64,000 nt of DNA from a virus (taxonomy: Duplodnaviria; Heunggongvirae; Uroviricota; Caudoviricetes). The notes below the pieces were generated by a model. That model worked only from the letters and a program-made list of their open reading frames with translations, had not been told where the DNA came from and made no database searches. Location: IMG/VR virus record IMGVR_UViG_2909262264_000005; one strand, given 5' to 3'. Positions within the stretch are counted from its first letter, which is position 1. The number at the start of each line of letters is the position of its first letter. This document shows positions 7,861 through 30,005 of the stretch, piece by piece. The position numbers and the translations under genes were made by a program.

Positions 7861-8518
7861 GGCGCGCCTCCCATTGATTACGGCGAAAAGCGGTGTGACT
7901 GAGGCTGGTTTCTGCCTTATGGAATGCTTCAATACAGCTCTCGTAGTACCGCATTGTGCGCAGACTTAACCCAAGCTGAAGCATCATCAGGCCGTCAAGG
8001 GTGATGTAATAACCACGCAGGGAATCGCCATACACGTGGTAAGTACCCGGTATGAAATTACGGGAGAAGAATTCACGCGAGCAGTTCAAATACTCGATTT
8101 TGTCGACGATGTTCTGGTGCATGCGCTTAAAGTGGCAGGCAACATGCAGGGAGAAAATAACAGCTTTGCCGTTGACGACTTCAATTTTGAGGAATGAGTG
8201 GGTTGGGACTGTAGCCATGATGGCAACCTCCTTGAGCAGTGAAAGACTTCCACCACCGGAGGTTCCAAGCTCGCTGGTGGCGGACTGAACAGGGTTGGAA
8301 CTACCGGCGCTCAAGGAAACCGGCGAGCCTTTCGGCTCCCCTGCCCAGCCCACCATAATTCTGGCGTGCGCGAGCATGGACGATAAAAAAGACGCTGGCG
8401 CGTCGTATATCGCCTCGAGCAATTCCGGGGTTCCAATCCCGGCACCCGCTTTATAAGGTGCCGGAACAGTGTAACGTCCCGAAATTGCAGAATCAATATT
8501 TAGGCTTGAAACATTCAT
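7853..8518 (-). CDS. Hypothetical replication-module protein (221 aa)
   Basis: Shares a conserved ~120-aa segment (…IPGRYTV.APYKAGAGIG…AIYDAPASFLSS…IMVGW…) with the 278-aa ORF at 56511-57347. Confidence 0.55.
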   Translation of the reverse strand: MNVSSLNIDSAISGRYTVPAPYKAGAGIGTPELLEAIYDAPASFLSSMLAHARIMVGWAGEPKGSPVSLSAGSSNPVQSATSELGTSGGGSLSLLKEVAIMATVPTHSFLKIEVVNGKAVIFSLHVACHFKRMHQNIVDKIEYLNCSREFFSRNFIPGTYHVYGDSLRGYYITLDGLMMLQLGLSLRTMRYYESCIEAFHKAETSLSHTAFRRNQWEARHV

Positions 8519-8631
8519 ATGCTTACTGGTATTTTTACTAACGCAAATGTTCTTGGATGTTACTGGCTTACTTCTTTTGTGAAGTTGCCTTTACTAACGT
8601 TGAGCGAGCCGGGCCACTGCCCGGCTTTTTT

Positions 8632-9339
8632 TCACCGCTGCCAACCAATAACCTGAAATAACCCCATTTTCGGGTGATACCAGCGAGTCCCTCGCGGTTC
8701 TGCTTCCTCCATAACCCGATAAAAAGCAGCCATAAACGGTTCCACAGCAACAATTGCGCGACGTGATAACAATCCATCCGGTGTCATAAACTCGTGGGTA
8801 TCGGTAGGAATTTGATAAGCGTTCACCAGATTGCGGCATTTATCATCTGACAAACCGGTTTTCGCTTTCAGTTGGCGATATCCGGCATAGCCCTCACGAA
8901 TGGTACCCCTTTTGATTTGCTCAACTGTTTCGGCAACATGGCTGACTTTTTCTTCCACCTGAGTGATCCGTTTCTGCTGACGAACGGCTTCAAGAGCCAT
9001 CGCAGCAACCATTTCGATTTCGCTCATTGGCTTACGGATCTGTTCTTCCAGTTCGCGCCAGCGATCTACCAGGCGAGCAGTGAATTCAGGACAGAGCTGT
9101 GCGACGACAATAATGCTGTCGCGCTTACCTTGTTCTCCTTCAAACAGGTAATGCTCATATTGAACTTTAAAACCTAAGTTATTGATTCTTTCGGAAACCT
9201 CAATTTGAGGAGACCGGACAACGCCACCTTTGGCTAATGTTTCAATAGTGCGTTTCACATTGTCATGACGTTTACCCACCAGCTCTGCGATTTCAACGCT
9301 GGTCATGGATACTTTGTCGTTAAAAATTGCAGCGTTCAT
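8632..9339 (-). CDS. Rha-family phage regulatory protein (antirepressor-like)
   Basis: Start MNAAIFNDKVSMTSVEIAELVGKRHDNVKRTIETL with RBS AAGAGG; matches the Rha N-terminal signature. Confidence 0.65.
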   Translation of the reverse strand: MNAAIFNDKVSMTSVEIAELVGKRHDNVKRTIETLAKGGVVRSPQIEVSERINNLGFKVQYEHYLFEGEQGKRDSIIVVAQLCPEFTARLVDRWRELEEQIRKPMSEIEMVAAMALEAVRQQKRITQVEEKVSHVAETVEQIKRGTIREGYAGYRQLKAKTGLSDDKCRNLVNAYQIPTDTHEFMTPDGLLSRRAIVAVEPFMAAFYRVMEEAEPRGTRWYHPKMGLFQVIGWQR

Positions 9340-9510
9340 TGTTGCCTCTTTACGAAAAACCATGATTAACCTCTAGCTTTCCCTGTCTTTTCCGCACTTC
9401 TTGTACGGTGATATTATTCAGTGCCGGATGCTTACCCGTGTCCGGCGCACGACCACACGTAGCCGCGTGTTGGTCTCCATTTTCAATTCAGCTCTCAATG
9501 GAGGATAAAA

Positions 9511-9756
9511 ATGTCAAATACCCAACATCTAAAAGCGGCGGATCCCGTTTTACGCCTCAATGCACTTGAAACGGTTGTTCGGGCGATGCTGTCGAGCATG
9601 ACACCCGAGCAAATAAACAAAGCGCGATTGATTGCTACTCGTGGTGCCCAATTAGCAGCCCTAGATCCATTGCTCACTCCTGCGAATCGCGAAGATGTAG
9701 AGCACATTCAGGGGATGGTTGATTATTTATTCGCCCATATTCCTGATCAGATTTGA
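9511..9756 (+). CDS. Hypothetical protein (81 aa)
   Basis: Strong RBS GGAGGA 7 nt upstream of ATG; lies between Rha and cro on the opposite strand. Confidence 0.5.
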   Translation: MSNTQHLKAADPVLRLNALETVVRAMLSSMTPEQINKARLIATRGAQLAALDPLLTPANREDVEHIQGMVDYLFAHIPDQI

Positions 9757-9837
9757 TTCTTTGAACCATAATTTCAGCGATACGAATGGCCGCCGCTTCG
9801 AGTCTGGCGGCTTCTTTATCTGCATAAGAGCTACCCA

Positions 9838-10083
9838 TCACTTCTCGTCCTCTGTGTGCGCTAAGCTTGGGTGTGGAAAAAGCTCTGGTAGATCTGGACG
9901 AAATTCATACGCTTGGATCTTTCCGTCGACAGCTGCAACCAATAACGGCACAAATTCTGGTGAAATCTTGTTCTTGCAGTTCAACCAATCGCAGACTGTT
10001 GACTGGGCCTTTCCGCATCGCTTGGCTAAGGCTTGCTGACTTCCAAGAATCTCAATAGCTTTCTCTATGGCTTTATGTTTCAT
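9838..10083 (-). CDS. Cro-like HTH repressor
   Basis: Start MKHKAIEKAIEILGSQQALAKRCGKAQSTVCDWLN with RBS AGGAG; divergent from the cI-like gene across a 119-bp operator region. Confidence 0.7.
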   Translation of the reverse strand: MKHKAIEKAIEILGSQQALAKRCGKAQSTVCDWLNCKNKISPEFVPLLVAAVDGKIQAYEFRPDLPELFPHPSLAHTEDEK

Positions 10084-10152
10084 AATCGCATCTCCTATTG
10101 AATGCATAATAACAACAGGAAAAGCGATATTCAACGTTAAACCTAGAATATT

Positions 10153-10168
10153 TATCGGAAAGCCGATA
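10153..10168. promoter_or_regulatory. Operator-like palindrome in cro/cI intergenic region
   Basis: TATCGGAAAGCCGATA (inverted repeat TATCGG/CCGATA); a related half-site GCGATA lies ~30 bp upstream. Confidence 0.35.
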
Positions 10169-10202
10169 GACTAGCCAGGATAGAGAGGGGAGGAAAATCG
10201 CA

Positions 10203-10895
10203 ATGACATTTTCAGAACGACTTGATTTAGCTATGCGCAACGCAAAATTTACGCAAGGTAGGCTGGCCAAAGAAGTGGGTATGGCTCAGTCCAGTGTCAA
10301 TCAACTACTTAACAAAGCCAACGGTTCCAGAAAAACAGTCGAAATAGCAAAAGTTTTGGGCGTTAACCCGGAATGGCTTGCATCGGGTGTTGGCCCAATG
10401 GAAATCGTGACCTCTGCAGACTCACACCAAATACGTAACATTTCTGAAGATTGGGTTACTGATTCGTATGTCGTGGATGTTTTAGACATCAGATATAGTT
10501 GCGGACCTGGTAGTTATAACTCTGATTTTCCTGACATTGTCAGATCTATAGCGATAGAACCAGGATACGCATCAAGAGTTTTTGGCGGCAGACCAGCATC
10601 AGCAATCAAAGCAATAAACGCCCACGGCGACAGCATGAAAGGCACAATAAACCCTGAGGACTTGGTGTTTGTTGACGTATCAGTTCGCTCATTTAATGGC
10701 GATGGTATATACGCTTTTACATACTCAGGAACATCGCACATCAAAAGGCTTCAAAAAATCAAAGACACCCTAACAGTGATCTCAGACAATCCAGCTTACA
10801 AAGATTGGGCTATCGAACAAGATGACTTCGAGCAACTTCACATTGACGGAAAAGTAATCGTAAGTTGGCCTATGACGCTACACCGTTTCGCATAA
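10203..10895 (+). CDS. CI-like prophage repressor (N-terminal HTH, C-terminal S24 LexA-type peptidase domain)
   Basis: 230 aa; HTH region QGRLAKEVGMAQSSVNQLL; C-terminal GDSM...K autocleavage-type domain (AHGDSMKGTINPEDLVFVD). Confidence 0.85.
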   Translation: MTFSERLDLAMRNAKFTQGRLAKEVGMAQSSVNQLLNKANGSRKTVEIAKVLGVNPEWLASGVGPMEIVTSADSHQIRNISEDWVTDSYVVDVLDIRYSCGPGSYNSDFPDIVRSIAIEPGYASRVFGGRPASAIKAINAHGDSMKGTINPEDLVFVDVSVRSFNGDGIYAFTYSGTSHIKRLQKIKDTLTVISDNPAYKDWAIEQDDFEQLHIDGKVIVSWPMTLHRFA

Positions 10896-10918
10896 GCGAT
10901 AATTATTTAACATCCCCG

Positions 10919-10944
10919 CCCACTCCACGAGTGGGTTTTTTTTT
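10919..10944 (+). terminator. Intrinsic terminator after cI-like gene
   Basis: CCCACT-(C)CACG-AGTGGG stem-loop followed by T9. Confidence 0.55.
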
Positions 10945-10963
10945 GAAAAAATCGACAAACCGA

Positions 10964-10992
10964 TTGACAACATGAATAGGTAAACCTATTAT
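10964..10992 (+). promoter_or_regulatory. pL-like sigma70 promoter with embedded operator palindrome
   Basis: TTGACA (10964-10969), 17-bp spacer, TATTAT (10987-10992); spacer contains inverted repeat AATAGGTAAACCTATT (10975-10990). Confidence 0.45.
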
Positions 10993-11041
10993 CATGACAT
11001 AAGTATCGAACTCACCAAAACAATTATAGAGGATGAGGAAA

Positions 11042-11452
11042 ATGTCATCGTATATGGGGTTACCAACAAATCAACACGATGCTCTTGAGAATATTCAACT
11101 CTTAGTAGGGGCTGGAGCACTACTGTATAGCAGCAATAACCCTGAGTTAATTGAACTTGCCAGCTCCATCCTGGCTGTAACTCAAAAATATAGCCTCACC
11201 GCGTCGCGTTTATGCAAACAAAATTTAGTTATTAATTCCCAGAATCGGATTCGCACCCAACGCGAAGCCTGCGGCTTAACAACCGCCGAACTCGCCAGGC
11301 TGCTCGATCTCGATGAAGAAATCATCATCCAGTGGGAAAGCGGAGAGTATGAACCAACTATCAGTATGCTTATCCCACTGGCAAATGTTCTTGGTTGCGA
11401 CCCGATGTGGCTGTTAACCGGTAAACCAACAGGTGGGGATACTTGCGCATGA
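11042..11452 (+). CDS. XRE-family HTH protein (first early-left gene)
   Basis: Start MSSYMGL with RBS GAGGA; C-terminal HTH CGLTTAELARLLDLDEEIIIQWESGEYEP. Confidence 0.55.
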   Translation: MSSYMGLPTNQHDALENIQLLVGAGALLYSSNNPELIELASSILAVTQKYSLTASRLCKQNLVINSQNRIRTQREACGLTTAELARLLDLDEEIIIQWESGEYEPTISMLIPLANVLGCDPMWLLTGKPTGGDTCA

Positions 11453-11814
11453 AAAAGTTCGAAAACATAACCGTTCTCCATGTTGATGACTTTGATTATA
11501 CAAACCCGGAACTTCTCCCGGAGGTTGTAAAGGCAATAGATGTAGCCGATATAGTGATTAGAGGAAAGAGAATTGTCAAAAACAGACTCGCATGCACTTC
11601 AGGAGCAATGACAGAAACAACCCCACAGCAAGATGATTATGAAGGCATTTGTCTGGAACCGGACTCATTTGCGGTAAATGTTTATCATTTATTGCATGCA
11701 ACACGGGTATTACATATGTCCAGTAATCACGAAACAGAAACACTTGGCAGCGAAATTCTGAATTTTGCATGTGAATATGCAAAATCTGCTGCCGAAAAAG
11801 AATTAGCGCAATAA
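11443..11814 (+). CDS. Hypothetical protein (123 aa)
   Basis: Overlaps upstream gene by 10 nt; no recognisable motif. Confidence 0.45.
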   Translation: MRMKKFENITVLHVDDFDYTNPELLPEVVKAIDVADIVIRGKRIVKNRLACTSGAMTETTPQQDDYEGICLEPDSFAVNVYHLLHATRVLHMSSNHETETLGSEILNFACEYAKSAAEKELAQ

Positions 11815-12196
11815 CAATAAATATTCCCTGAATGTTTATTACGGTTTTATCGCCGGGGATTGTTGCAACCTTTATTCGCAGGAGATTATGTTATGACTTT
11901 CCTGAAACATAAGGCATCGTATAAAACTGCCTGCCTCATTGCACAACATGGAGATTCTTATCTTCATATAGCCAGCCTGTATTTGCGCAAAGCATATGGG
12001 AGATAAGTCAATGGAAGAAAAACAACAAAACATAACACATAAAAAAAGTAAGAGTGTTGCTAACCATTGAAAATGGTGAAGTAATTTACTCAAAACATCT
12101 GTTGGATAATGAATTCGTTGGCTGCATGGATACATTTCTGTGGATGGCAAAAAGAGCTGGCTACACGATTATTCCACCAGCAAAGGAGCAAACATT

Positions 12197-12778
12197 ATGA
12201 ATCATTCAGAGTTCCGACCAGAAGTTACGCCACATGGCATAAAAATTGGCAATACAACCATTGATTATGTTGAGGCCGTACAGCGGCTTAATGATGGTGA
12301 ATACGATAATCCATACTGGCACGGGTTAAGAATCATGCAATGTATTGCAGAAGCTGATGATGCCGGACTGCTGGGCAAATTTTCAGTCGATATGAAGGTT
12401 GCCCAGTGGCGCTGGCTATATGTAGCGAAATTTATCAGTGAAGTGGAAGACAAGAACGGCACCATTGATATCCCTAACGATAACGGAACTACAGATCGCG
12501 CAGTTATTTATAAGGGGAAGCATGGTTGCATGAGTATATACCCAGGACCACTTCGCATTGCCCTGCAAAACCATGTCGAATGGGGATTTATTGAAAAATA
12601 TGGTGAAGCTGAAGGCATGGGGCGAGTTCTGTTTCTCTATCAAAAAATGCTCATCGCAGATCCTAATAATGGTTTCATTGTCTCTGCTATGGGGCGCGAA
12701 GGGCTTGAACTCCTTCTGGATGAAATGATTCACGATCTGAATACTCATGGTATGCCAGAAGCGCCAGTGACACATTAA
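12197..12778 (+). CDS. Hypothetical protein (193 aa)
   Basis: Start MNHSEFRPEV with RBS AAGGAG 8 nt upstream; the six-frame ORF extends upstream from 12140. Confidence 0.5.
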   Translation: MNHSEFRPEVTPHGIKIGNTTIDYVEAVQRLNDGEYDNPYWHGLRIMQCIAEADDAGLLGKFSVDMKVAQWRWLYVAKFISEVEDKNGTIDIPNDNGTTDRAVIYKGKHGCMSIYPGPLRIALQNHVEWGFIEKYGEAEGMGRVLFLYQKMLIADPNNGFIVSAMGREGLELLLDEMIHDLNTHGMPEAPVTH

Positions 12779-12954
12779 ATATTAAGAAGAATATAATTCT
12801 TCCGTTTTTTACTAACCGTTTATATGAAAAGCAACCGTGAATTAAGCAGAGTAAAACTGCTTTTAATCCTTGCCACAGTACTGACACTAACAGAAATCAT
12901 TATTCTCTTTATTGCGCTGTCAGTCAGTTAAAAATATCGGGATGCAACAAACCA

Positions 12955-13143
12955 ATGAGATTGTATTTCAGAATAGTAATTTTACTGGCAATTATCGCAT
13001 GCATTTACGGACTACTCGTCCCGTTCCTTATATCCATGAAGGATACGGTAGCAGTCATTTCCGGCTTTGCACTGGCGTTTCTGACCCCGCCCTGCATTTA
13101 TGCCATTTACAAGGGTCTTTCTTTCACTAAGGGTAAAAGATGA
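12955..13143 (+). CDS. Small membrane protein (62 aa, two predicted TM helices)
   Basis: MRLYFRIVILLAIIACIYGLLVPFLISM…AVISGFALAFLTPPCIYAIY; stop overlaps the start of the SPFH gene (ATGA). Confidence 0.45.
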   Translation: MRLYFRIVILLAIIACIYGLLVPFLISMKDTVAVISGFALAFLTPPCIYAIYKGLSFTKGKR

Positions 13144-13967
13144 AAAAGGTTATTTTTGCTTTAGCCATTGTTCTTCCGACCATTGGCCTTGTCGGTTGCG
13201 ATCGCGTTGAACCAGGTAATGTTGGCATCAAGGTAAATAAACTGGGCGACGACAAAGGCGTCGGTGAAGTGGTTGGCGTTGGCCGCTACTGGACCGGCTG
13301 GAATACTGAAGTTTACATCTTCCCGACCTTCAAACAAATGAAGACCTACGATGAACCGTTCAGTTTCCAGATGAGTGACGGTACAACCATCGGCTATCAC
13401 ATCGGCGTGGCCTACAAAGTTGACCCATCCAAAGTTACCACGGTGTTTCAGACCTACCGCAAAGGCGTGGATGACATTACCGACACCGACCTGCGTCAAA
13501 AGATCGCCGACGCACTCAATCGACTGGCCAGCAAAATGACCACCGACAAATTTATCGACGGCGGGAAGTCTGAACTACTGGATGCAGCTCTTAAAGACAT
13601 TCAGGAGGAAATGACACCCATCGGTATTCAGGTAATGAGCCTCTCATATGTGGGTAAGCCGGAGTACCCGTCAACCGTTATCGACAGCATTAATGCCAAA
13701 GTCACGGCGAACCAGAAAACACTGCAGCGCGAGCAGGAAGTTAAACAGCGCGAAGCGGAAGCCAACATGTTGCGCGCGGAAGCTGCCGGACAGGCTGATG
13801 CGATTCGCACAAAAGCCCAGGCCGAAGCCGATGCTATTCGTTTACGCGGTGAAGCTCTGCGCCAGAACCCCGGTGTTATGGAGCTGGAAGCCATCAATAA
13901 ATGGAACGGCACACTGCCGCAATACATGACCAGCGGTGCAAATACACCATTTATCCAGGTTAAATAA
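13140..13967 (+). CDS. SPFH/band-7 (prohibitin/flotillin-like) domain lipoprotein
   Basis: Lipoprotein signal MKKVIFALAIVLPTIGLVGC; SPFH core (NVGIKVNKLG…) and Ala/Glu-rich coiled-coil C-terminus (EAEANMLRAEAAGQADAIRTKAQAEADAIR). Confidence 0.7.
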   Translation: MKKVIFALAIVLPTIGLVGCDRVEPGNVGIKVNKLGDDKGVGEVVGVGRYWTGWNTEVYIFPTFKQMKTYDEPFSFQMSDGTTIGYHIGVAYKVDPSKVTTVFQTYRKGVDDITDTDLRQKIADALNRLASKMTTDKFIDGGKSELLDAALKDIQEEMTPIGIQVMSLSYVGKPEYPSTVIDSINAKVTANQKTLQREQEVKQREAEANMLRAEAAGQADAIRTKAQAEADAIRLRGEALRQNPGVMELEAINKWNGTLPQYMTSGANTPFIQVK

Positions 13968-14007
13968 CTTATATGCCCGGCAGGCCGCCGGGCTAAGGGA
14001 AATGCAG

Positions 14008-14367
14008 ATGAACACCCAGAATACTCAACCGCAAATAATGAACTATGACCCGAATCTGACGTCATGCGGACGCATGGCAAAACAAACCGTTCGATTAACT
14101 TTCGGACTATGGGAATACCGCGAAACATTCGAAGTTACTGTCGGCGGCAATCTGACCGGACTGGATGTTATCAGTTGCGCTATTGAAAGCCTGTACGAAA
14201 CGCTGCCTTATGAAGAAGTCGAGGATGAGCGCGATATCATAGCCACCATTAATATCGGCGGACTGGAATGCAAGGATGAAAACCTGTCCGGAGAGCTCTG
14301 GCTTGCCGGGATGCTTATCTCAGCAGAAATTATCAGTATTGAACCCGCTACAAACATACAGCTCTGA
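14008..14367 (+). CDS. Hypothetical protein (~119 aa)
   Basis: ORF with RBS AAGGGA 7 nt upstream of the ATG at 14008; start uncertain. Confidence 0.4.
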   Translation: MNTQNTQPQIMNYDPNLTSCGRMAKQTVRLTFGLWEYRETFEVTVGGNLTGLDVISCAIESLYETLPYEEVEDERDIIATINIGGLECKDENLSGELWLAGMLISAEIISIEPATNIQL

Positions 14368-14398
14368 AGTTCTCACTATTCAGAGAGCAGGAGAAAAA

Positions 14399-14641
14399 AT
14401 GTTCGCTTTGATTAATCAAGGGCAACTGTATACCGACAGTGCCGGTTACCCGATAAAAATTATTCGCTGCATAAACAACACTGTGTTGTACAGAAGAATG
14501 GATGGGCGAACACAGTCGGTAAAAATAAACGATTTTAATGAACTGTTTGAACGGCTCGATCACCAGGAATACCGACAAATTCTGGCAGAAACAGAACAGG
14601 AAACTCATCTGAAAAAATTACGGGCCATGAAAAGGAAATAA
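14399..14641 (+). CDS. Hypothetical protein (80 aa)
   Basis: Start MFALINQGQLY with RBS AGGAG. Confidence 0.4.
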   Translation: MFALINQGQLYTDSAGYPIKIIRCINNTVLYRRMDGRTQSVKINDFNELFERLDHQEYRQILAETEQETHLKKLRAMKRK

Positions 14642-14644
14642 AGA

Positions 14645-14791
14645 ATGAATAAAGCGTTTGAGCTATGGGTACGCCAGCGTTACGGCAATCGCTATGACCT
14701 GACGCGAGATGTTGACGGTTTCTACTGCCGTGAAATTGTGAAACGAATGTTTGAAGTGTGGTGCCACTGCCGTGGGCTGAATGTTGTATGA
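14645..14791 (+). CDS. Small hypothetical protein (48 aa)
   Basis: MNKAFELWVRQRYGNRYDLTRDVDGFYCREIVKRMFEVWCHCRGLNVV; below the 60-aa track cut-off; tight spacing with flanking genes. Confidence 0.3.
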   Translation: MNKAFELWVRQRYGNRYDLTRDVDGFYCREIVKRMFEVWCHCRGLNVV

Positions 14792-14799
14792 GGTGAACT

Positions 14800-15009
14800 G
14801 TGGGGCTGGATTGCGTACCTATATCAACCTACTGCCGCAACGCAGGAGAAACGGTTGATGCCGTTAACAAACGGATACAAAGAGGAATATGGAAAGAAGG
14901 GGTACATGTATTAAAAGTCGACGGAGTTAAAGAACGTTGGGTCGACTTAATGGAGATTACAAAATGGGCAAGAAAGAACAAGGATCATTATCTCTCCCTA
15001 GAGGAGTAA
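14800..15009 (+). CDS. xis: Excisionase (Xis-like)
   Basis: 69 aa from a GTG; …LDCVPISTYCRNAGETVDAVNKRIQRG.WKEGVHVLKV.GVKERWVDL… paralog of 62114-62320; 3' end overlaps the integrase start. Confidence 0.65.
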   Translation: MGLDCVPISTYCRNAGETVDAVNKRIQRGIWKEGVHVLKVDGVKERWVDLMEITKWARKNKDHYLSLEE

Positions 15010-16136
15010 CTATTCGGCAGCATAAAACTGGTAGCACTCTGGTTATCACTTTTACATATAAAGGGGTTCTGTGTCGGGAGCCCCTCTCCAGAATGGAAGT
15101 AAACGCGCGCGGTGTGAAGTACGCAGAACGTCTGCTGGGAGAAATAAAAAATCAGATTATCGATGGTACCTTCGAATATGCAAAATACTTCCCCAACTCC
15201 CAAAAGCTGGAGTTGTTCGGGGGAGTGAAAAAAAACAAAAATATAAAATCTTATCTGGATGAATACCTGATTATCTGCCAGAACCGTAACCTGTCACCAT
15301 CGACAATTAGAGGTTATGAAAAATGCTTGTCGGCGCTGTCAGCATTGCATAAATTTCATGTATCAGAACTGACACCTGCTGTACTAAAAAACTGGATCGC
15401 CAGCAGAAAAACAAAACTGAAAACGATCCGCAATAATCTTTCGTTTCTGCGCAGCGCCATAGATGAAGCGGTGACCGATGGTTTGTTAACAATAAATCCT
15501 GTCACGCTAGTCAGCGCCAGCCGGTATCACGTATTGGACAACACACCAGGCAGTGGTGATTACGAGGTCGATCCCTTTACACCAGCGGAGACGGCAGCAA
15601 TCTATGACGCCTGTCATTACCCGGAATGGCGAAATCTGTTTCGCTTTGCCTTTAATACCGGACTGCGTAGCTCAGAATTGTGCGCGTTGCGCTGGACGGA
15701 TATAGACTTCATCGGCAACACCGCGCATGTTCAAACTGCAAGCGTAGTCGGGGTAATCAAAAGCACCAAAACAAAAGCCGGCACCCGCAAAGTGCAACTG
15801 AACAGCGAAGCGCTGGCGGCTCTTCAGGCACAAAAGCCCTACACGGCGCTAAAGAGCGACTTCATATTCAGCGATCCGAAAACTCGCGCTCCTTGGGCAA
15901 ACGCAGATGCGATCCGAAAAAAAGCCTGGGTACCAACCCTTAAAAAAGCTGGTGTACGCTATCGCAATCCGTACCAGACACGCCACACGTTCGCCACACG
16001 GCACATTAGCCAGGGCGTTAACCTGTTCTGGCTTGCTGGTCAGATGGGACATAAAGGACCGGAAATGCTGTTCAGACATTACGGCTCTTACCTTGCAGAA
16101 TACGATGGAAAAACGGCGATTTCTGCAGCCCCGTAA
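14964..16136 (+). CDS. int: Tyrosine integrase (phage integrase family)
   Basis: 390 aa; C-terminal catalytic region …RNPYQTRHTFATRHISQGVNLFWLAGQMGHKGPEMLFRHYGSYL; adjacent to att core. Confidence 0.9.
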   Translation: MGKKEQGSLSLPRGVTIRQHKTGSTLVITFTYKGVLCREPLSRMEVNARGVKYAERLLGEIKNQIIDGTFEYAKYFPNSQKLELFGGVKKNKNIKSYLDEYLIICQNRNLSPSTIRGYEKCLSALSALHKFHVSELTPAVLKNWIASRKTKLKTIRNNLSFLRSAIDEAVTDGLLTINPVTLVSASRYHVLDNTPGSGDYEVDPFTPAETAAIYDACHYPEWRNLFRFAFNTGLRSSELCALRWTDIDFIGNTAHVQTASVVGVIKSTKTKAGTRKVQLNSEALAALQAQKPYTALKSDFIFSDPKTRAPWANADAIRKKAWVPTLKKAGVRYRNPYQTRHTFATRHISQGVNLFWLAGQMGHKGPEMLFRHYGSYLAEYDGKTAISAAP

Positions 16137-16268
16137 CGGCAAAATATTTCAAAATGTTGTACAGAATCAGGACGTTACCGGGACAACAATATGTACGTAA
16201 AATGCACATAATTCATTGTTTGAAAAAATAAATCGTTCATATTCAGTAAATTAGATTAATCACGATCA

Positions 16269-16295
16269 CGGGTTCAACTCCCGCCAGCTCCACCA
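16269..16295 (+). other. att core: duplicate of the tmRNA (ssrA) 3' end (T-arm + acceptor 3' strand + CCA)
   Basis: CGGGTTCAACTCCCGCCAGCTCCACCA = T-stem/TΨC loop (GGTTCAACTCC), acceptor 3' strand CAGCTCC, discriminator A, CCA; upstream sequence is integrase 3' flank, so only the 3' fragment is present; matches my recollection of the E. coli ssrA 3' end. Confidence 0.6.
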
Positions 16296-16426
16296 ATCAT
16301 GATTGGACGGTGTAAGGACAACACCAACAAAAACAGGAAGTTAGCAGTCTCAGCAGGACACCGACCAGACGGTGAGGAGACAAAAAAGGATACGCAAAGG
16401 AGCCGCGGCTCTCGAGTGACACAAAA

Positions 16427-16453
16427 GCCCGCTTATGCGGGCTTTTTGTTTTT
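16427..16453 (+). terminator. Intrinsic terminator downstream of the att core
   Basis: GCCCGC-TTAT-GCGGGC followed by TTTTTGTTTTT. Confidence 0.5.
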
Positions 16454-16529
16454 CCCTTAAGTTCCTAGCCGCTTATCTATAACTATGGAAAAATGTTAAC
16501 CCTGACTGTATGTTAACAAAGGGATGTAT

Positions 16530-17738
16530 ATGTCGGTTTTTCATAACTGGCTGCTTGATATCGCAAGCGGGAATTACTTTATCTACATCAAACGCCTTTC
16601 TGCAAACGACACAGGCGCAACAGGTGGCCATCAGGTCGGACTTTATATCCCCTCAAATATCGTTGAAAAGCTTTTTCCATCTATCAATCATACTCGCGAA
16701 CTGAACCCTTCAGTCTTCCTTACTGCGCATGTATCATCCCATGATTGCCCTGATACCCAAGCACGCGCAATTTATTACAACAACCGTTATTTTGGTAAGA
16801 CCCGAAACGAAAAAAGAATTACGCGCTGGGGGAGAGGAAGTCCATTACAGAACCCTGAAAATACAGGAGCCCTCACAATTCTTGCTTTCAGGTTAAACGA
16901 ACAGAACACTGACTGTTCCGAGGTAGATATATGGGTCTGCGTCAATCCCGATGAAGAGGATATCATCGAGTCTGCTATTGGCGAAATCATACCTGGAACC
17001 CTAATTTCCGGCCCTGCCGGACAAATTTTGGGCGGATTGTCTCTTCAGCAAACTCCAGTAAATCATAAATATGTTATTCCTGAAGACTGGAAGAAGCGTT
17101 TTCCTTCTGGAAACGAAATTATTCAATATGCTGCTGGCCATTATGCTAAAAACTCCAAGGATCCAGATGAGCAACTGATTGACCGTCGGCGTGTCGAGTA
17201 TGATATTTTTCTACTCGTCGAGGAATTACATGTTATTGATATTATTAAGAAAGGATTCGATTCTGTAGATGAGTTTATTGCATTAGCCAACTCTGTCAGT
17301 AATCGACGTAAATCAAGGGCAGGCAAATCACTTGAACTTCACCTAGAGAAGCTTTTTATCGAGCACGGACTACGGCATTTCTCCACTCAGGCAGTTACTG
17401 AAGGTAATAAAAAACCAGATTTCCTGTTTCCTTCAGCAGAGGCATATCATAACGTTGAATTTCCTGTAGAAAACTTACGTATGCTGGCAGTAAAGACCAC
17501 CTGCAAAGATCGCTGGCGTCAGATACTGAATGAAGCAGATAAAATCCATCAGGTACATTTATTTACACTGCAAGAAGGTGTTTCTTCAGCACAATACCGA
17601 GAAATGAAAGATGCGGGTGTCAGACTCGTTGTACCATCAACTTTACATAAAAAATACCCAGAAGCAGTTAGAGAAGAATTAATAACGCTCGGAGCATTCA
17701 TTACTGAGCTGATAGAGCTTTACGCTGAACTATCATAG
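16530..17738 (+). CDS. Type II restriction endonuclease, EcoRII family
   Basis: Start MSVFHNWLLDIASGNYFIYIKRLSANDTGATGGHQVGLYIPS matches my recollection of the EcoRII N-terminus; ~402 aa; convergent with a C5-cytosine methyltransferase. Confidence 0.75.
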   Translation: MSVFHNWLLDIASGNYFIYIKRLSANDTGATGGHQVGLYIPSNIVEKLFPSINHTRELNPSVFLTAHVSSHDCPDTQARAIYYNNRYFGKTRNEKRITRWGRGSPLQNPENTGALTILAFRLNEQNTDCSEVDIWVCVNPDEEDIIESAIGEIIPGTLISGPAGQILGGLSLQQTPVNHKYVIPEDWKKRFPSGNEIIQYAAGHYAKNSKDPDEQLIDRRRVEYDIFLLVEELHVIDIIKKGFDSVDEFIALANSVSNRRKSRAGKSLELHLEKLFIEHGLRHFSTQAVTEGNKKPDFLFPSAEAYHNVEFPVENLRMLAVKTTCKDRWRQILNEADKIHQVHLFTLQEGVSSAQYREMKDAGVRLVVPSTLHKKYPEAVREELITLGAFITELIELYAELS

Positions 17739-17772: not shown

Positions 17773-19206
17773 TCAAGGCTGCCCAGTCTTACCAGCATCA
17801 GCAGAAACAGCTTTGAGGATATAGGGTTCCAGAAGTCTGGCAACAGCTTCAAATACTGGCACCACAACTGAGTTACCGAACTGCCGATATGACTGAGTAT
17901 CTGAAACCGGAATACGGAATGGTTTCCCTCCAGGTTTTTCAAATCCCATAAGGCGTGCGCACTCTCGGGGAGTCAGCCTGCGTGGTCGACGAGCCTGATT
18001 ACTCTCATTCATAAAGTCAGCCTCTCCCGTTGCCATATCCCAACCACGATCAATAAGAATTTCTGATCCGTCTTTGTGATATCTGGCAGAAAGTGTGCGT
18101 GCAATGCTTTCCTTATTCTCAGGATTGACCAACCCAAAGCCAAAACCATTCCCCTTGGCTGCATGCTTTTTGGCGTAGTTATAAAGGTACTCCCATAGTT
18201 TTGGCGTAAGTATATATTTACTGTCGACTACAGGCTCCAGCAATTCACCAAATGATGGGCGGTGTTCCGGATAAAAACGACTGATATCACGCAAGGTAAA
18301 CCCCTTGTGAATATTCAGATCTCGTCTAAATCCGACCAGAACAATACGTTCACGATGCTGAGGCAAAAAATGCTTCCCATCGATAATCTTTGGATCGTTT
18401 TTTCCCATTTCTGCAGCATCGGCAACTTCGTAGCCCAGCTCGTCAAGGGTCTCCATAATGACTTTGAAAGTTTTACCCTTATCATGGCTCTTCAGATTTT
18501 TGACATTTTCCAGCACAAAAATTGCCGGTTTTTTTGCTCGTATAATACGTGCCACGTCAAAAAAAAGTGTTCCTTGTGCTTCACATTCAAAACCATGCGC
18601 ACGACCAAGTGAGTTTTTCTTACTAACACCAGCAAGGCTAAATGGCTGGCACGGGAACCCCGCAAGAAGCACATCATGATCCGGCACATGCTCATCAATA
18701 TATGCATAAGCATCCGTTTCCAATACATCGGTTTTATCACTCAGCGTGACTTCCCGAATATCGAGATTGAATTTATGCACCTGTTCATCGTTAAACCAGT
18801 TGGCCTTGTATGTACGCACAGCATCTTTATTCCATTCACTGGTAAAAACACACTGGCCTCCAATGGCCTCAAAACCTTTCCGTATCCCTCCAATTCCAGC
18901 AAATAAGTCAATGAAGCGGAAAGCATATTCCGGATGGTTTGCAGGTGGTTCTGGTAGCATCTTACGCAGAAGAGACTCTTCTACTGAAGTCAACGATTTT
19001 GGTAAACACTTGCCATTAATCCAGCGGTTAATGGTTTCACGGCTCCACTCATTTTTTCCGACTTTTCTCAGTAATTCAGCCACATACTTCTGATCATAGA
19101 TTTCCAGCACTTTCTCGATAAGCTTTTTATCATTTTCCTGTCGCAGCTTTTCTTCCGCCTCGGCTTCCTTCAGCAGATGCTGTGCCAACACTTCAAATTC
19201 AGACAT
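17773..19206 (-). CDS. DNA (cytosine-5)-methyltransferase, Dcm/M.EcoRII-like
   Basis: Motif [16 protein letters not shown], motif [22 protein letters not shown]; start MSEFEVLAQ with RBS GGAGG; tail-to-tail with the endonuclease gene (34-bp gap). Confidence 0.85.
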
Positions 19207-19567
19207 AATTCCTCCAAGGGGTCTAATGGGTGAAACTTTATCACTCATTCAACCCAGAAGGAAATGTTTTATCTGGATATTTAAACAGTGACTACAACGT
19301 AATCTAGCACTGGTGATGCTTTGTTAGGCATAGAGAATCATTCTATATACGACTAATGACAGAAAAACAGCAGACAAGTAGTTTGTTCATAAATTAACGC
19401 ATACTATGTGTCTACGGTTTTCGAGACCGGTCCAATCATCAAACGAAACATAAAATTAGCTCACATTATGAGGAAAAGTATCTTTTTTGTACTATGTAAA
19501 TTCAAAGGCTTAGCCTCATTTCTCCGATGGTTTTCTCAACACTACTGGTTGTGAGCCCTTGCAATGA

Positions 19568-20386
<819 letters not shown>

Positions 20387-20455: not shown

Positions 20456-21040
20456 TTACACGGTGTCTGGTTCTTCTGGCCACTCAATATCCGGTGCAGT
20501 TGATGTATCAACACGGTTCAGCAACACCCGATACTTTTTCCAGGCTTCCAGCAATGAGGTTTCTTCCTCCGTTGCGATTTCCAGATCTACAGCATCCTGA
20601 AGTGGCGCAATATGCTCACTGGCTACCTGCATCAGGCTGTTTTTTGTTTCTTCCGCCTCTCGGATCCGGAACAGTTTTTCTGCTTCTGCATCTTTCACCC
20701 AGGCTGTGCCGTTCCACTTCTGAAACTCCCCTTCCGGCGATAACCAGGTAACATTTTCCGGTAACGGACCGAGTTCAGAAATAAATAACGCGTCCCCTGA
20801 CGCTACGTCATAAACCGTTTTACCCCGATGGTCTTCATCGAGATGCCACGATGCCTTATCACTGTTGAAAACAGCCACAAAGCCAGCAGGAATATCTGGT
20901 GGTGCAATATCGGTACTGTTTGCTGGCAGACCTGTATGAGGCGGAATATATGCGTCACCTTCACCAATAAATTCATTAGTTCCGGCCAGCAGATTATAAA
21001 TTTTTATGGTCCGTGGTTGTTCACTCATTCTGAATGCCAT
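20456..21040 (-). CDS. tfa: Tail fiber assembly protein
   Basis: [44 protein letters not shown]…; start overlaps stf stop (TAATG). Confidence 0.8.
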
Positions 21041-24000
21041 TATGCAAGCCTCACAATATAGTTAAATGCGATGTTTTTGACGGTGTTTTCCGCGTTACCA
21101 GCAGCGTTAACGGTGATGGTGTGTCCATGTGAACCAATCGCAACGGAGTGCGTATGAGCACCAATACCGACAGTATGCGCGTGTGCACCTGCAGATGCTG
21201 CTGTGCCGGACAGTGAATGGCTATGATTACCATCTGTACTGGTATTCGCTAACCACCCCGTAGACATACCTACTGAGCCTTGTACACCCCAGGTATTTTG
21301 ACCTGAGCTTGTATAACCATATTGATAAGTATCTTTAAAAACACTGGGGTTAAATCGACGGCCATCTCTATGGCTGTGATTACCAGCTGCATTCGTGCTG
21401 CCACTTAAACTATGGGTATGCGCACCAGTGTTATTCGTGGATTTAGTGCCGTAATCAAACGACGATGTGGTTTTCGTCCCCAAATCCGTACTGGATGCGC
21501 TGGCGCTGTGGGTATGCGATTTAATGCCATCCTGTTCCTGAGACAATACGGCACGACCACTGGCGGGCTTGCCCTTAATCGTCCAGCCACGCAAATCAGG
21601 GATCACGCCTGACGGATAAGCGGCAGCAAGTTTCGGGTAGGCAGATTTGTCAAAAGTCTGCCCCTGCATCAGGGCATAACCAGACGGAACGGTATCTGAT
21701 GGCCACGGGATTGGTGCGCCGACTGGGTAGCTTTCTGGTGGAAGATTTTTCGAGGTATAAACTTCTGCCCAGTCTTCCTCAAAACCATAGCCATCTCTTG
21801 AAGAACGGTAGAACAGACCACCATTTCTGTAATGCGCCTTCATCTGCAGGGTCCGGCAACTTCCGACTCCGGTATAGAAGTTAACCAGAATATAGCTGTC
21901 GCCAGAGCGGGTGACATTGTAAGCGCCTGATTCGGCATTCCAGGGAACGCCACCATCCGCATCGGCATATGTATCCGTTGCCCTTCTGGCAAAAGCAGCC
22001 ACATGCGCGGCGGTTAAAGTAATATCTTTGGAACCATCAAACTCAACACCAGAAACCAGTCTTGGCGTTTGCAGCTTTGTTGCTGTTAATGCATTACCGT
22101 TCAGACTTGCGGACAGTTTGGTTCCAATAACCAGTTCGCCGGTTGCGTTATCAATAGCAAACGGTCTTAATGTATTCCAGCCACCATAAACATCACCTTG
22201 ATTGGTAAGCAGCAGGTAAGTTTTAGCGCCATCATTACGCCATAATGCCCCATACTCCCCACCTATCATTCGAATCTGATTACCACCACGCGCTACAATT
22301 TCGTCTGTGGCAAAAAGTTTTTTGCACGACAAGTTATCGTTAACGATTAACGAATGAGACTCATAAAAACCACGCCCACTCTTAAAATCAAGGATAACGT
22401 CCGCCGCGATACATTCAGTCGCCGGATTTGTTGCCCCAAACTTATAGGTCGTATCATTAACAACGAGATCAGCACCAGGTGCGGATATTGACAGGCCATC
22501 TTCGATAAACGCAAAAACAGGGAAAGCAGCGCCATCAACATAGAACACAGAGCGCAAATCATCGCCCTTATTACTCATCATTATTGAGTGGATGGCTCGT
22601 TCATTGTTTTGATATTGCCAGAACATTCCATAAGCATAACGCCCCCTGTCAGTCCAGCCACCAGGCATAACAAATCCGTTAAACTCGCAGTTATTCATCG
22701 GATCGCCTGCGGTTCGCGGTGCCGTGGTGATAATGACCCTTGATGCCAGTTCGCTTACTGAGCCAGCAGAACGCATAACAACAACAGGGTAATATTTTCC
22801 AGATGTTGCACCTGCAGGAGCGTTAACCCGCACATAACGCATACCACGCTTATCAGCAAAGTCTGTTTTACTGACCGCGTTAATGTTGTTCAGGAAGCGT
22901 CCCTTATCGGGTATATCAGCGCCGTTCTGGTCTTTCTGCAGACGTTTCTCTGCATTGTCATAGGCTGATTTTACTGCCTTTGGCGTTGCCGCCAGCGTTT
23001 CAGACGTACTGTTGGTCGCACTGCTGAGCTGTACTATCCCCTTTTTCGTCGTACTTGCATCCTCAAGCGCCACGGCGGATGCAATATCCTCTGCCCGTTT
23101 AGCTGCTGTCTCGGCGCGCGTTGCCGCGGATTCCGCCGTACTTTTGCTCTGTGCTGCCGCCGTCGCACTGCCAGCTGCCTCTGTCGCCTTCGTGGATGCT
23201 GTCGTGGCGCTGCCCTTCGCTGCTGACGCCTGTCTGGTCGCCTCATCTTTTGAAGCAGACGCCGATGATGCCGATGACGCCGCCGAACTGGCGGACGATG
23301 CGGCAGCCGTTTTTGAGGATTCTGCGCTGGTTTCCGACGCTTTCGCGTTCGTCTCGGATGTCTTCGCTGCGGAAGCAGACCTCGCTGCTGCACTGGCCTG
23401 TTCAGTGGCTTCGCCAGCCTTCGTTGTGGCTGTTGAAGCGGACGATGCGGCGCTTTCTGCCGATTTTCCGGCGGCGCTAGCACTGGCTGAGGCCTGCCCG
23501 GCACTTGTTGACGCGGCACTGGCAGATGATGCAGCCGCTGTTTTTGAGCCTGCCGCAGCTGAGGCACTCTGTCCCGCTGCCGTTTCAGAAGACTTAGCGT
23601 TCGTCTCGGACGTTTTTGCCGCCTTCGCAGAATTTGCTGCCGCCGTTGCCGAGGAAGCGGCACTACTGGCGCTTGATGATGCGTTCGTTTCTGATGATTT
23701 CGCTGCCTCTTTTGAGGCCGCCGCATCCCGGGCTGAGGTGGCAGCTTCTGACGCCTTCGTGGTCGCGGCGGATGCAGAAGTGGCTGCAGATTTTTGTGAC
23801 GCTGCCGCATTCGTTTCTGACGTTTTCGCGGCACTGGCACTGGTAGCTGCCGCGCTTTTTGAGGACTCTGCAGCAGCAGCACTTTTCGATGCTTCAGTGG
23901 CCTTTGTTGATGCCGTTCCTGCGCTGGAAGACGCCTCCTGAGCCGAAGTCGCGGCCTGTCCGGCTGACGTGCTGGCTGCACGCGCTGAGCCTGCAGCATC

Positions 24001-24438
24001 AGTCGCATGGGTTGCCGCCTCACGGGCAGATGTGCCGGCATCGCCGGCTGACTTCTTCGCGGCTGCCGTGTTCTGTGCCACCGCGGACGCGTTACGCGCC
24101 ACCTCTTCCACCATCAGTTCAAAACGGCGCAGAGCCTCCGGACGGGCATCATCCTCCGTCATGGCACCGAGAAAATCATTCAGCGTACCGGGTCGGGAAT
24201 CTTCATACACGGTGATGGTCCCGGCATGTGACGGCGGGAATCCTTCCACCAACAGAATAACGCTGTACTGACCGTACTCAACGTCCATGCTGTAACGCCC
24301 GGCTTCATCCGGATTTTCTGAGGCCAGCGTGTTCACCACCACCGTGGTGCTGTTACGTTTTGCTTTCAGCTGGATTGTGCAGTTCTGTACCGGTTTTCCT
24401 GTGCCGTCTTTCAGTACACCTGAAATCTTTACTGCCAT
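21040..24438 (-). CDS. stf: Side tail fiber protein
   Basis: Start [37 protein letters not shown] and C-terminal …[27 protein letters not shown] as in lambda Stf; long Ala/Ser/Thr-rich central region. Confidence 0.85.
23050..23950. repeat. Low-complexity Ala/Ser/Thr-rich coding repeats within stf
   Basis: Degenerate repeats such as AAKTSETNA…SASAA recur; generate spurious long ORFs in other frames. Confidence 0.5.
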
Positions 24439-24449
24439 ATTCACCCCAC

Positions 24450-24475: not shown

Positions 24476-24502
24476 TGTCATAACACTGTGTTACCTGGCT
24501 AA

Positions 24503-30000: not shown

Positions 30001-30005
30001 GGGAT

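What the first reader, a model, noticed from the sequence alone, without database searches (positions are those of the whole stretch)
16269..16295. tmRNA (ssrA) 3'-end duplicate marks the integrase-proximal att of prophage A; tandem array of integrative elements
132 nt after the integrase stop lies CGGGTTCAACTCCCGCCAGCTCCACCA, a tRNA-like T-arm plus acceptor 3' strand and CCA whose acceptor strand is complementary (with one G-U) to the tmRNA 5' end GGGGCUG; no tmRNA body precedes it. This is the signature of a phage integrated into the ssrA 3' end, with the intact gene expected at the far end of prophage A (left of the window). What follows is not ordinary host sequence but an R-M islet and a second prophage whose integrase is ~70% identical yet is not followed by a similar core, so several elements appear stacked at or near this hotspot.
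Basis: partly seen in the sequence, partly recalled or inferred. Interest (0 to 1): 0.55.

Follow-up and report, generated by a model that had tools for sequence, protein, structure and literature searches.

The report
Prophage attachment scar from tmRNA gene
The 27 bases are a leftover copy of the end of the tmRNA gene (ssrA), made when a lambda-like virus inserted into that gene in E. coli; a second, related virus sits right behind it, which is a well-known and ordinary arrangement.

Summary
Confirmed and ordinary. Window 16269-16295 is an exact, unique copy of the last 27 nt of E. coli ssrA (T-arm, acceptor 3' strand, CCA). It has no tmRNA body, and it lies 132 nt after the stop codon of a tyrosine integrase that has an arm-binding domain.

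- **Empty site:** in E. coli MB06171 an intact ssrA ends exactly where window 16296 begins, and the next 4.8 kb are 100% identical.
- **Single lysogens:** in strains ETEC1738 and E94 a prophage about 96% identical to prophage A lies between an intact ssrA at the tail-fibre end and this same 27-mer at the integrase end.
- **Free phages:** LMessi (integrase 88% identical to IntA) and LLS (85% identical to IntB; attP annotated "tmRNA pseudogene") carry the same block inside a contiguous attP.

So the 27-mer is attR of prophage A and also attL of prophage B.

The EcoRII-type restriction-modification genes lie inside prophage B's att boundaries, so they are cargo and not a separate element. Prophage B does have an ssrA-derived attR, but in relatives it lies 1.44 kb past the intB stop, about 0.9 kb beyond the window end.

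The intact ssrA left of the window could not be seen directly, because the source genome was not found. Novelty is nil and interest is low.

The parts
1..16295 (+). Right-hand (early region to integrase) part of lambdoid prophage A. The left part, with the intact ssrA, lies outside the window.
   Evidence: Window 1130-16295 is 95.7% identical, at 84% coverage, to ssrA-bounded prophages in ETEC1738, E94 and five other complete genomes. Pfam finds an S24 LexA-like repressor, Rha/Ash, an SPFH protein and a porin.
14800..15009 (+). Putative excisionase of prophage A, overlapping the start of int.
   Evidence: RefSeq calls the homologous ORF 'excisionase' in two genomes (H6 and H9) and 'hypothetical protein' in others. 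It has no Pfam hit. The assignment is inferred from position.
14964..16136 (+). Integrase A, a tyrosine recombinase of 390 aa.
   Evidence: Pfam hits pass their cut-offs: Arm-DNA-bind_2 (2.7e-19), SAM-like domain, Phage_integrase (1.8e-19). It is 88% identical to the integrase of the isolated phage LMessi.
16137..16268 (+). Integrase-proximal att arm of prophage A, with two GGAC motifs 11 bp apart at 16170 and 16181.
   Evidence: This arm is contiguous with the core in the free phage LMessi, with GGAC at the same offsets, -98 and -87. The arm occurs in only 26 of 5,426 complete E. coli genomes. A role as arm-type Int sites is inferred.
16269..16295 (+). Core: a displaced copy of ssrA nt 337-363 (T-stem CGGG, T-loop TTCAACT, CCCG, acceptor 3' strand, ACCA). 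It is attR of prophage A and attL of prophage B.
   Evidence: Similarity to A-only lysogens and to the A-free strain MB06171 breaks exactly at its two edges.
16296..16456 (+). Integrase-distal arm of a B/LLS-type attP. It has GGAC motifs at 16305, 16316 and 16356, and an intrinsic terminator (stem 16423-16446 plus T-run) that ends ssrA transcription in B-only lysogens.
   Evidence: It is 100% identical to the sequence directly after intact ssrA in MB06171. It is 91-92% identical to the arm after the 'tmRNA pseudogene' in the attP of free phage LLS. Terminator scan. Motif statistics.
16524..17738 (+). EcoRII-type restriction endonuclease, cargo of prophage B.
   Evidence: Pfam EcoRII-N (3.9e-61) and EcoRII-C (3.6e-71). 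It lies inside B's att boundaries in three genomes.
17773..19248 (-). C5 cytosine DNA methyltransferase, partner of the endonuclease. RefSeq places the start at about 19206.
   Evidence: Pfam DNA_methylase (4.6e-78) and DNA_meth_N. RefSeq annotation.
19613..20386 (+). LEM-3-like GIY-YIG nuclease gene, variable cargo of prophage B.
   Evidence: Pfam PF22945. In ST95-32 it is replaced by ferredoxin and hydrolase genes.
20456..63456 (.). Body of lambdoid prophage B, from tail-fibre assembly to integrase. It carries one IS21-family insertion at 48925-51562.
   Evidence: It is colinear with MB06171 at 100% identity in every stretch compared, apart from one 2,638-bp insert.
62281..63456 (+). Integrase B, 391 aa.
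   Evidence: Pfam Arm-DNA-bind_2 and Phage_integrase. It is 69% identical to IntA and 85% identical to the integrase of phage LLS.
63752..64000 (+). First of two small genes lying between intB and prophage B's own ssrA-derived attR. That attR is expected near position 64,898, outside the window.
   Evidence: RefSeq CDS in MB06171, SA186, ST95-32 and AL.H8. The ssrA remnant follows the second gene.

Best explanation
The 27-mer is the displaced original 3' end of the tmRNA gene ssrA. It was left at the integrase end (attR) of lambdoid prophage A when that phage integrated into ssrA by site-specific recombination.

The phage attP carries its own copy of ssrA nt 337-363, so the lysogen keeps a complete ssrA at the other (tail-fibre) end of the prophage. 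The old 3' end is pushed about 40 kb downstream as a silent direct repeat.

IntA is a heterobivalent tyrosine integrase. It probably binds the CGGG/CCCG T-stem dyad as its core sites and exchanges strands in or near the 7-nt T-loop. Its N-terminal domain probably binds GGAC repeats in the flanking arms. These three steps are inferred, not shown.

The DNA to the right of the 27-mer is the distal attP arm, restriction-modification cargo and body of a second ssrA-integrating lambdoid prophage, B. The 27-mer is therefore a hybrid junction: proximal arm of A, core, distal arm of B. It serves as attR for A and attL for B within a tandem array at ssrA.

Because the copy is wild-type, excision of A should leave ssrA unchanged.
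For: Shown:
- The 27-mer matches ssrA 337-363 exactly and is unique in the window.
- There is no tmRNA body in front of it.
- A tyrosine integrase with an arm-binding domain ends 132 nt upstream.
- Empty-site comparator: in MB06171 intact ssrA ends at the base matching window 16295, and the downstream 4.8 kb are 100% identical.
- Single lysogens ETEC1738 and E94 carry an A-like prophage between an intact ssrA and the same 27-mer in direct orientation, 43.1 and about 39.6 kb apart.
- Free phages LMessi and LLS carry a contiguous proximal arm, ssrA 3' block and distal arm. LLS is annotated 'tmRNA pseudogene / attP'.
- In other E. coli prophages the similarity to A's early region stops at 14794, just before xis-int. 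So int-att behaves as a swappable cassette.

Crossover position:
- In four B-type attR copies the segment up to C356 is constant and carries the phage-specific G336A.
- The tail beyond C356 varies: wild-type, delta-T357, or a 5-nt deletion.
- This places B's strand exchange between nt 337 and 356.

Arm sites: five GGAC motifs lie on one strand against 1.1 expected (P = 0.004), at conserved offsets in four independent att arms.
Against: The partner copy inside an intact ssrA in the source genome was not seen. It lies left of the window, and the source genome was not found in any collection.

No complete E. coli genome shows the A|B tandem, so the full array is reconstructed from separate A-only and B-only lysogens.

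The strand-exchange position for IntA itself, the role of the GGAC motifs and the activity of either prophage are all inferred. Prophage A also carries an IS21-family insertion.

The 155-bp arm also occurs next to the chromosomal backbone in strains without prophage B (ETEC1738; SA186). On its own it therefore does not prove phage origin.
Confidence: 0.9

Rival explanations
1. The structure is the same but the history differs. Prophage A was the first resident at ssrA. Prophage B arrived later and integrated into the displaced 27-mer at A's attR, used as a secondary attB, rather than A integrating into the intact ssrA of a B lysogen.
For: Both routes give exactly the observed hybrid junction: proximal arm of A, core, distal arm of B (reasoned). 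The displaced copy keeps the full T-arm dyad. Displaced copies followed by the same 155-bp arm exist in A-only lysogens such as ETEC1738.
Against: At least 240 complete genomes have the R-M/prophage B block, and it abuts intact ssrA in the three inspected. MB06171 is 100% identical to the window across the junction. A-type arms are rare, 26 of 5,426 genomes, and none of these has B behind it. Parsimony therefore favours a B lysogen that later acquired A.
Confidence: 0.2
2. The 27-mer is what remains of an ssrA gene whose body was deleted or overwritten, that is, a decayed pseudogene. It is not an integration-generated duplicate.
For: Only the last 27 nt are present and no partner copy is visible in the window.
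Against: The left edge of the match coincides with the start of the attP identity block. The same upstream arm is contiguous with the core in the free phage LMessi. That arm plus the 27-mer co-exist with a complete ssrA in ETEC1738 and E94. A deletion would not reproduce the same breakpoint in 26 genomes.
Confidence: 0.03
3. Prophage A did not integrate here by its own integrase. Instead, an int-att cassette carrying the 27-mer was moved onto a resident prophage by homologous recombination between mosaic lambdoid genomes.
For: The early region 1130-14794 occurs with other integrase modules at other chromosomal loci, so exchange at about 14795 does happen.
Against: This would still leave the 27-mer as an ssrA att core. 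Prophages with the same cassette are found only at ssrA in the genomes inspected. The junction is base-precise.
Confidence: 0.05
4. The 27-mer is a chance resemblance to a tRNA-like 3' end.
For: None beyond the shortness of the match.
Against: The match is 27/27 exact, with no matches in 100 shuffles even allowing 3 mismatches, and E = 1e-9. The comparative breakpoints are precise.
Confidence: 0

Closest known systems
[quoted passage not shown]
   Same: The target gene is the same. ssrA 3'-end fragments separate successive elements. ssrA is a hotspot holding almost all prophage genera and other mobile elements (PMC3603311). Tandem prophages arise when phages share an attB (PMC8112680).
   Different: Nothing in kind. 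This particular A|B pairing is absent from the 5,426 complete E. coli genomes searched.
Escherichia phage LMessi (PP925823), an isolated temperate phage
   Same: Its integrase is 88% identical to IntA. Its attP has a homologous proximal arm, the ssrA 3' block and an A-type distal arm, with GGAC motifs at the same offsets.
   Different: LMessi's identity block to ssrA is 35 nt with one mismatch (G336A), against 27 nt in prophage A. DNA identity across int-att is only 79%.
Escherichia phage LLS (PQ299149), whose attP is annotated 'tmRNA pseudogene'
   Same: Its integrase is 85% identical to IntB. A gene of about 270 codons (no detectable similarity to B's) sits between int and the ssrA block. 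Its distal arm is 91-92% identical to window 16296-16447, terminator included.
   Different: LLS lacks the EcoRII-type restriction-modification and GIY-YIG cargo. The rest of its genome was not compared.
CP4-57 of E. coli K-12 and other P4-type ssrA islands
   Same: They integrate into the 3' end of ssrA and leave a partial direct repeat. A P4-type island follows prophage B in MB06171 and follows the A-like prophage in E94.
   Different: In P4-type elements the integrase lies directly after the intact gene and is transcribed away from it. Their attR copy carries delta-T357, so excision inactivates tmRNA (PMC10107115). Here the integrase is at the far end and is transcribed towards the core, the identity block covers the whole T-arm, and the displaced copy is wild-type.
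Phage lambda Int/attP
   Same: The integrase is heterobivalent, with an arm-binding N-domain and a catalytic domain. The int gene sits beside attP and is transcribed towards it. Repeated arm motifs lie on both sides of the core. Cargo sits between the tail-fibre genes and att, in the position of lambda's 'b region'.
   Different: The target is an RNA gene 3' end that the phage must restore, and the core sequence differs. The arm-site consensus here (GGAC) is only a statistical inference.

Membership tests
att duplicate of a prophage integrated in a tRNA/tmRNA gene 3' end | A partial copy identical to the 3' end of the target gene, without the gene body | tested here: met
   27/27 identity to ssrA 337-363. 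ARAGORN finds no gene. Rfam gives only a truncated 3' hit below the gathering score.
att duplicate of a prophage integrated in a tRNA/tmRNA gene 3' end | An adjacent tyrosine integrase belonging to the same element | tested here: met
   IntA at 14964-16136 has Arm-DNA-bind_2 and Phage_integrase domains above their cut-offs. The arm between int and core is conserved together with int.
att duplicate of a prophage integrated in a tRNA/tmRNA gene 3' end | A second copy, in direct orientation, inside an intact gene at the other end of the element | not testable with these tools
   That end lies outside the window and the source genome was not found. The feature is met in the closest lysogens, ETEC1738 and E94.
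att duplicate of a prophage integrated in a tRNA/tmRNA gene 3' end | An empty-site relative in which the flanks join precisely at the repeat | tested here: met
   In MB06171 intact ssrA ends at the base equivalent to 16295 and continues 100% identical to 16296-21100.
att duplicate of a prophage integrated in a tRNA/tmRNA gene 3' end | A contiguous attP (arm, core, arm) in a free phage genome | tested here: met
   LMessi and LLS.
att duplicate of a prophage integrated in a tRNA/tmRNA gene 3' end | Demonstrated Int-dependent integration and excision | not testable with these tools
   This needs an experiment.
functional tmRNA gene | A complete tRNA-like domain, tag reading frame and pseudoknots | tested here: not met
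   Only the last 27 nt are present.
tandem array at ssrA | Two or more elements, each with its own integrase, separated by ssrA 3' fragments in the same orientation | tested here: inconclusive
   Two integrase-bearing prophages and one fragment lie in the window. B's distal fragment is seen only in relatives, at a position 0.9 kb beyond the window end.
independent restriction-modification genomic islet | Its own recombinase, or flanking repeats that separate it from neighbouring elements | tested here: not met
   No integrase and no att-like or long direct repeat in 16100-21100. The genes stay inside B's attL-attR in three genomes.
prophage 'regulatory switch' that inactivates tmRNA on excision (CP4-57 type) | A displaced att copy carrying a defective 3' end (delta-T357 or a 5-nt deletion) | tested here: not met
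   The window copy is the wild-type ...CGCCAGCTCCACCA. Defective tails occur at B's attR in MB06171 and ST95-32, which is outside the window. See PMC10107115 Table 1.

The most novel reading that the evidence does not exclude
The array may act as a layered buffer for tmRNA function. Prophage A carries wild-type cores at both ends and sits between ssrA and the downstream elements. If B's attR in this genome carries a delta-T357 or 5-nt-deletion tail, as it does in MB06171 and ST95-32, then excision of B alone would place that tail in the silent 27-mer and not in ssrA. Only joint excision of A+B, or excision of B after A is lost, would switch off trans-translation. The hybrid junction (proximal arm of A, core, distal arm of B) has compatible GGAC arm motifs, so it might be used by either of the 69%-identical integrases. 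That would couple the fates of the two prophages.
Probability: 0.1. Interest if true: 0.35.

Novelty: already known. Interest (0 to 1): 0.1.

Why it matters
The finding matters mainly for annotation.

- **Boundaries:** it fixes the right boundary of prophage A at 16295 and the left boundary of prophage B at the same core.
- **Cargo:** it assigns the EcoRII-type restriction-modification genes to prophage B.
- **Locus:** it places the window at the ssrA hotspot of an E. coli chromosome.
- **Excision:** because the displaced copy is wild-type, loss of prophage A should not damage tmRNA. This differs from CP4-57-type islands.

It opens no new question. ssrA-targeting integrases, tandem arrays at ssrA and attP sites annotated as tmRNA pseudogenes are all established.

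Tried and rejected
Searches for the source genome:
- Exact-pattern scans of the GTDB species representatives, with the junction 59-mer and with an A-arm+core 38-mer, found nothing.
- No complete E. coli genome covers 14900-17400 contiguously.
- Scans of viral and metagenome contigs gave three hits. They are 96-99% identical to the window and stop within tens of bases of the core, or are of the ETEC1738 type. None reaches an ssrA.
- The 53-kb metagenome contig ERZ1034763 NODE-90 probably spans the whole of prophage A, but only 4.4 kb of it could be read.

Searches for a second att copy:
- No second copy of the core exists inside the window with up to 3 mismatches or by short-word BLAST of the whole ssrA.
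- No repeats flank the restriction-modification genes; only short chance repeats were found.

Other checks:
- Inversion between the two inverted IS21-family copies was considered and rejected. Both flanks of the copy in B are contiguous in MB06171, with a 7-bp target duplication.
- Williams 2003 (PMC142792) is not held in the library. Its content is cited only through other papers or from memory.
- The putative excisionase has no Pfam hit.

Full report
**1. The observation**

The sequence CGGGTTCAACTCCCGCCAGCTCCACCA lies at window 16269-16295 on the + strand. It occurs once in the 64-kb window even when three mismatches are allowed, and none of 100 dinucleotide-preserving shuffles produced a match.

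I aligned it against an annotated E. coli ssrA gene taken from strain MB06171. It equals the last 27 nt, positions 337-363, with E = 1.2e-9. These positions cover four of the five T-stem bases (CGGG), the T-loop (TTCAACT), the return strand (CCCG) plus C352, the acceptor 3' strand (CAGCTCC) and ACCA.

ARAGORN finds no tmRNA or tRNA gene anywhere in the window. The Rfam tmRNA model gives only a truncated 3' hit of 24 bits, against a gathering score of 47, and it is confident only over the last ~30 nt. So this is a fragment and not a gene.

The upstream ORF, 14964-16136, encodes 390 aa with Arm-DNA-bind_2, SAM-like and Phage_integrase domains, all above the Pfam cut-offs. Its stop codon is 132 nt before the 27-mer.

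**2. A natural experiment fixes what the fragment is**

Three kinds of comparator agree to the base.

- **Empty site for prophage A.** In E. coli MB06171 the intact 363-nt ssrA, downstream of smpB, ends at the base equivalent to window 16295. The next 4,805 bases are 100% identical to window 16296-21100. The window therefore differs from MB06171 by having prophage A inserted within the last 27 nt of ssrA.
- **Single lysogens.** Seven complete genomes carry a prophage 95.7% identical to window 1130-16295.
  - In ETEC1738 the element runs from an intact ssrA at the tail-fibre end to the same integrase arm plus 27-mer. The two 27-mers are in direct orientation, 43.1 kb apart.
  - E94 has the same layout, with the copies about 39.6 kb apart.
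- **Free phages.**
  - The isolated phage LMessi has an integrase 88% identical to IntA. It carries a contiguous int, proximal arm, ssrA 3' block and distal arm. Its distal arm is homologous to what follows intact ssrA in ETEC1738.
  - The isolated phage LLS has an integrase 85% identical to IntB. It carries int, one gene, a block annotated 'tmRNA pseudogene / attP', and an arm 91-92% identical to window 16296-16447.

Together these show that the 27-mer is the att core. The 132 nt to its left are prophage A's integrase-proximal arm. The 155 nt to its right are the integrase-distal arm of a B/LLS-type attP.

**3. How it most likely works**

What is shown:
- The phage attP contains a copy of the ssrA 3' end.
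- Lysogens have a complete ssrA at one end and the partial copy at the integrase end.

What is inferred:
- **Core sites.** IntA probably uses the T-stem dyad CGGG/CCCG as core-binding sites and exchanges strands in or beside the 7-nt T-loop. As I recall it, this matches the T-loop sublocation class described by Williams (2002).
- **Crossover position.** Four B-type attR copies give indirect support.
  - All four share the segment up to C356, which carries the phage-specific G336A.
  - The tail beyond C356 varies: wild-type in AL.H8 and SA186, delta-T357 in MB06171, and a 5-nt deletion in ST95-32.
  - So for IntB the left part of attR comes from the phage and the extreme 3' tail from the host. 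That places strand exchange between nt 337 and 356.
  - IntA is 69% identical to IntB, and its identity block begins exactly at nt 337.
- **Arm sites.**
  - GGAC motifs lie only on the + strand. Five are observed against 1.1 expected (P = 0.004).
  - They sit at conserved offsets from the core in the window, LMessi, LLS and ETEC1738: about -99 and -88 in the proximal arm, and +10, +21 and +50 or +61 in the distal arm, with 11-bp spacing within each pair.
  - They are plausible binding sites for the N-terminal arm-binding domain.
- **Terminator.** An intrinsic terminator at 16423-16446 plus a T-run is part of the distal arm. It would end ssrA transcription in a B-only lysogen. In the window it lies behind the orphan core.
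- **Effect of excision.** Both copies flanking prophage A are expected to be wild-type, so excision of A should restore an intact ssrA. CP4-57-type islands differ here: their excision leaves delta-T357 and inactivates trans-translation (PMC10107115).

**4.

*Prophage B is also an ssrA prophage.* In MB06171, SA186 and ST95-32 it lies between intact ssrA and an ssrA 3' fragment, TTCGGACaCGGGTTCAACTCCCGCCAGC plus a tail. That fragment lies 1,441 nt after the intB stop, behind two small genes. The window ends at the stop codon of the first of those genes, at position 64000. The fragment would therefore fall near position 64,898.

*The restriction-modification genes are cargo of B.* The block consists of the following genes:
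- an EcoRII-type endonuclease at 16524-17738, with EcoRII-N and EcoRII-C domains;
- a C5 methyltransferase at 17773-19248 on the - strand;
- a GIY-YIG gene at 19613-20386.

This block lies between B's distal arm and its tail-fibre genes, inside B's att boundaries, in all three genomes. No att-like repeat or recombinase separates it from B. In ST95-32 only the GIY-YIG gene is replaced. So the block occupies the position of lambda's b region and is not a separate element.

*The window holds two stacked elements, not three.* In MB06171 a P4-type integrase island follows B. In E94 a P4-type island follows the A-like prophage directly.

*The order of arrival cannot be read from the structure.* A integrating into the ssrA of a B lysogen, and B integrating into A's displaced core, give the same junction. 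Frequencies favour the first route. The R-M/prophage B block occurs in at least 240 complete genomes, and it directly follows intact ssrA in the three inspected. The A-type arm occurs in 26 of 5,426, and none has A|B.

**5. Comparison with what is known**

ssrA is a classic integration hotspot that holds almost all prophage genera and other mobile elements (PMC3603311). Tandem prophages that share an attB are the textbook explanation for such arrays (PMC8112680). The partial ssrA copies and their variants were catalogued by Williams (2003), as tabulated in PMC10107115. An attP annotated 'tmRNA pseudogene' already exists in GenBank for phage LLS.

All defining features of an att duplicate at an RNA-gene 3' end that could be tested here were met. 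The only untested ones are the partner copy in the source genome and experimental recombination.

**6. Verdict**

This is an already-known kind of feature and of low interest. The particular A|B pairing is not present in the complete genomes searched, but it is only a new combination of known elements.

**7. Limits**

The source genome was not found. The intact ssrA to the left and prophage B's attR to the right are therefore inferred from close relatives. Arm sites, crossover position and prophage viability are also inferences. Prophage A carries an IS21-family insertion.

Noticed in passing
window 48925-51562 and window 1-1133: A 2,638-bp IS21-family element is a simple insertion in prophage B relative to MB06171, with a 7-bp target duplication ACTCATA. 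It encodes IstA (rve + Mu-transposase C domain, 49796-51442, - strand) and IstB (49024-50022, - strand). A 99.9% identical copy of its IstB end, in inverted orientation, fills window 1-1133. That copy interrupts prophage A's DNA-methyltransferase gene. The inverted copies could mediate an inversion of about 48 kb that would include the att junction.
   Followed up: partly
L004 17699-17733; L012, L013 and L014 near 5699-5735 (equivalent to about window 64,898, outside the window): Prophage B's attR copies share a constant phage-derived left part (G336A). Their 3' tails differ: wild-type, delta-T357, or a 5-nt deletion (AGC-----CA). These are the same tmRNA-inactivating variants listed for CP4-57-type islands in PMC10107115. 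Excision of B in some strains might therefore disable tmRNA.
   Followed up: partly
window 16170, 16181, 16305, 16316, 16356: GGAC motifs lie on one strand only, in 11-bp-spaced pairs. Their offsets from the core are conserved in phages LMessi and LLS and in ETEC1738. They are candidate arm-type integrase sites.
   Followed up: partly
window 16524-19248: A complete EcoRII-type restriction-modification pair (endonuclease with EcoRII-N and EcoRII-C domains, plus a C5 methyltransferase) is carried as prophage cargo next to ssrA. At least 240 complete E. coli genomes have the 16296-21100 block that includes it.
   Followed up: partly
window 8273-8461 and 56799-56987 (- strand): Each prophage carries a C4 antisense RNA plus an isrK sRNA (Rfam hits above the gathering scores), next to Rha/Ash-type regulator genes. 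This points to P1/P7-like antisense control of an antirepressor in both prophages.
   Followed up: no
window 2378-3475 (+): Prophage A carries an OmpC-like porin gene (Pfam Porin_1, E = 2.9e-154). RefSeq annotates it as ompC in related prophages.
   Followed up: no
window 14794/14795: In several E. coli genomes (UMNF18, SE11, STEC313 and others), at other chromosomal positions, similarity to prophage A's early region ends at 14794, just before xis-int. So the xis-int-att cassette is exchanged as a mosaic module.
   Followed up: no
window 20499-20697 (- strand): A full-length Rfam IS009 hit (229 bits) lies entirely inside the tail-fibre-assembly gene of prophage B (20456-21040, - strand). The 'sRNA' family may simply reflect this conserved coding sequence.
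   Followed up: no
window 16296-16450; L002 7396-7550; L012 from about 5736: The 155-bp distal-arm sequence with its terminator also occurs next to chromosomal backbone genes (ypjA, glaH) in strains that have no prophage B at that spot. It could be a relic of an earlier phage, or an ancestral ssrA downstream region that these phages copy. I could not decide between the two.
   Followed up: partly
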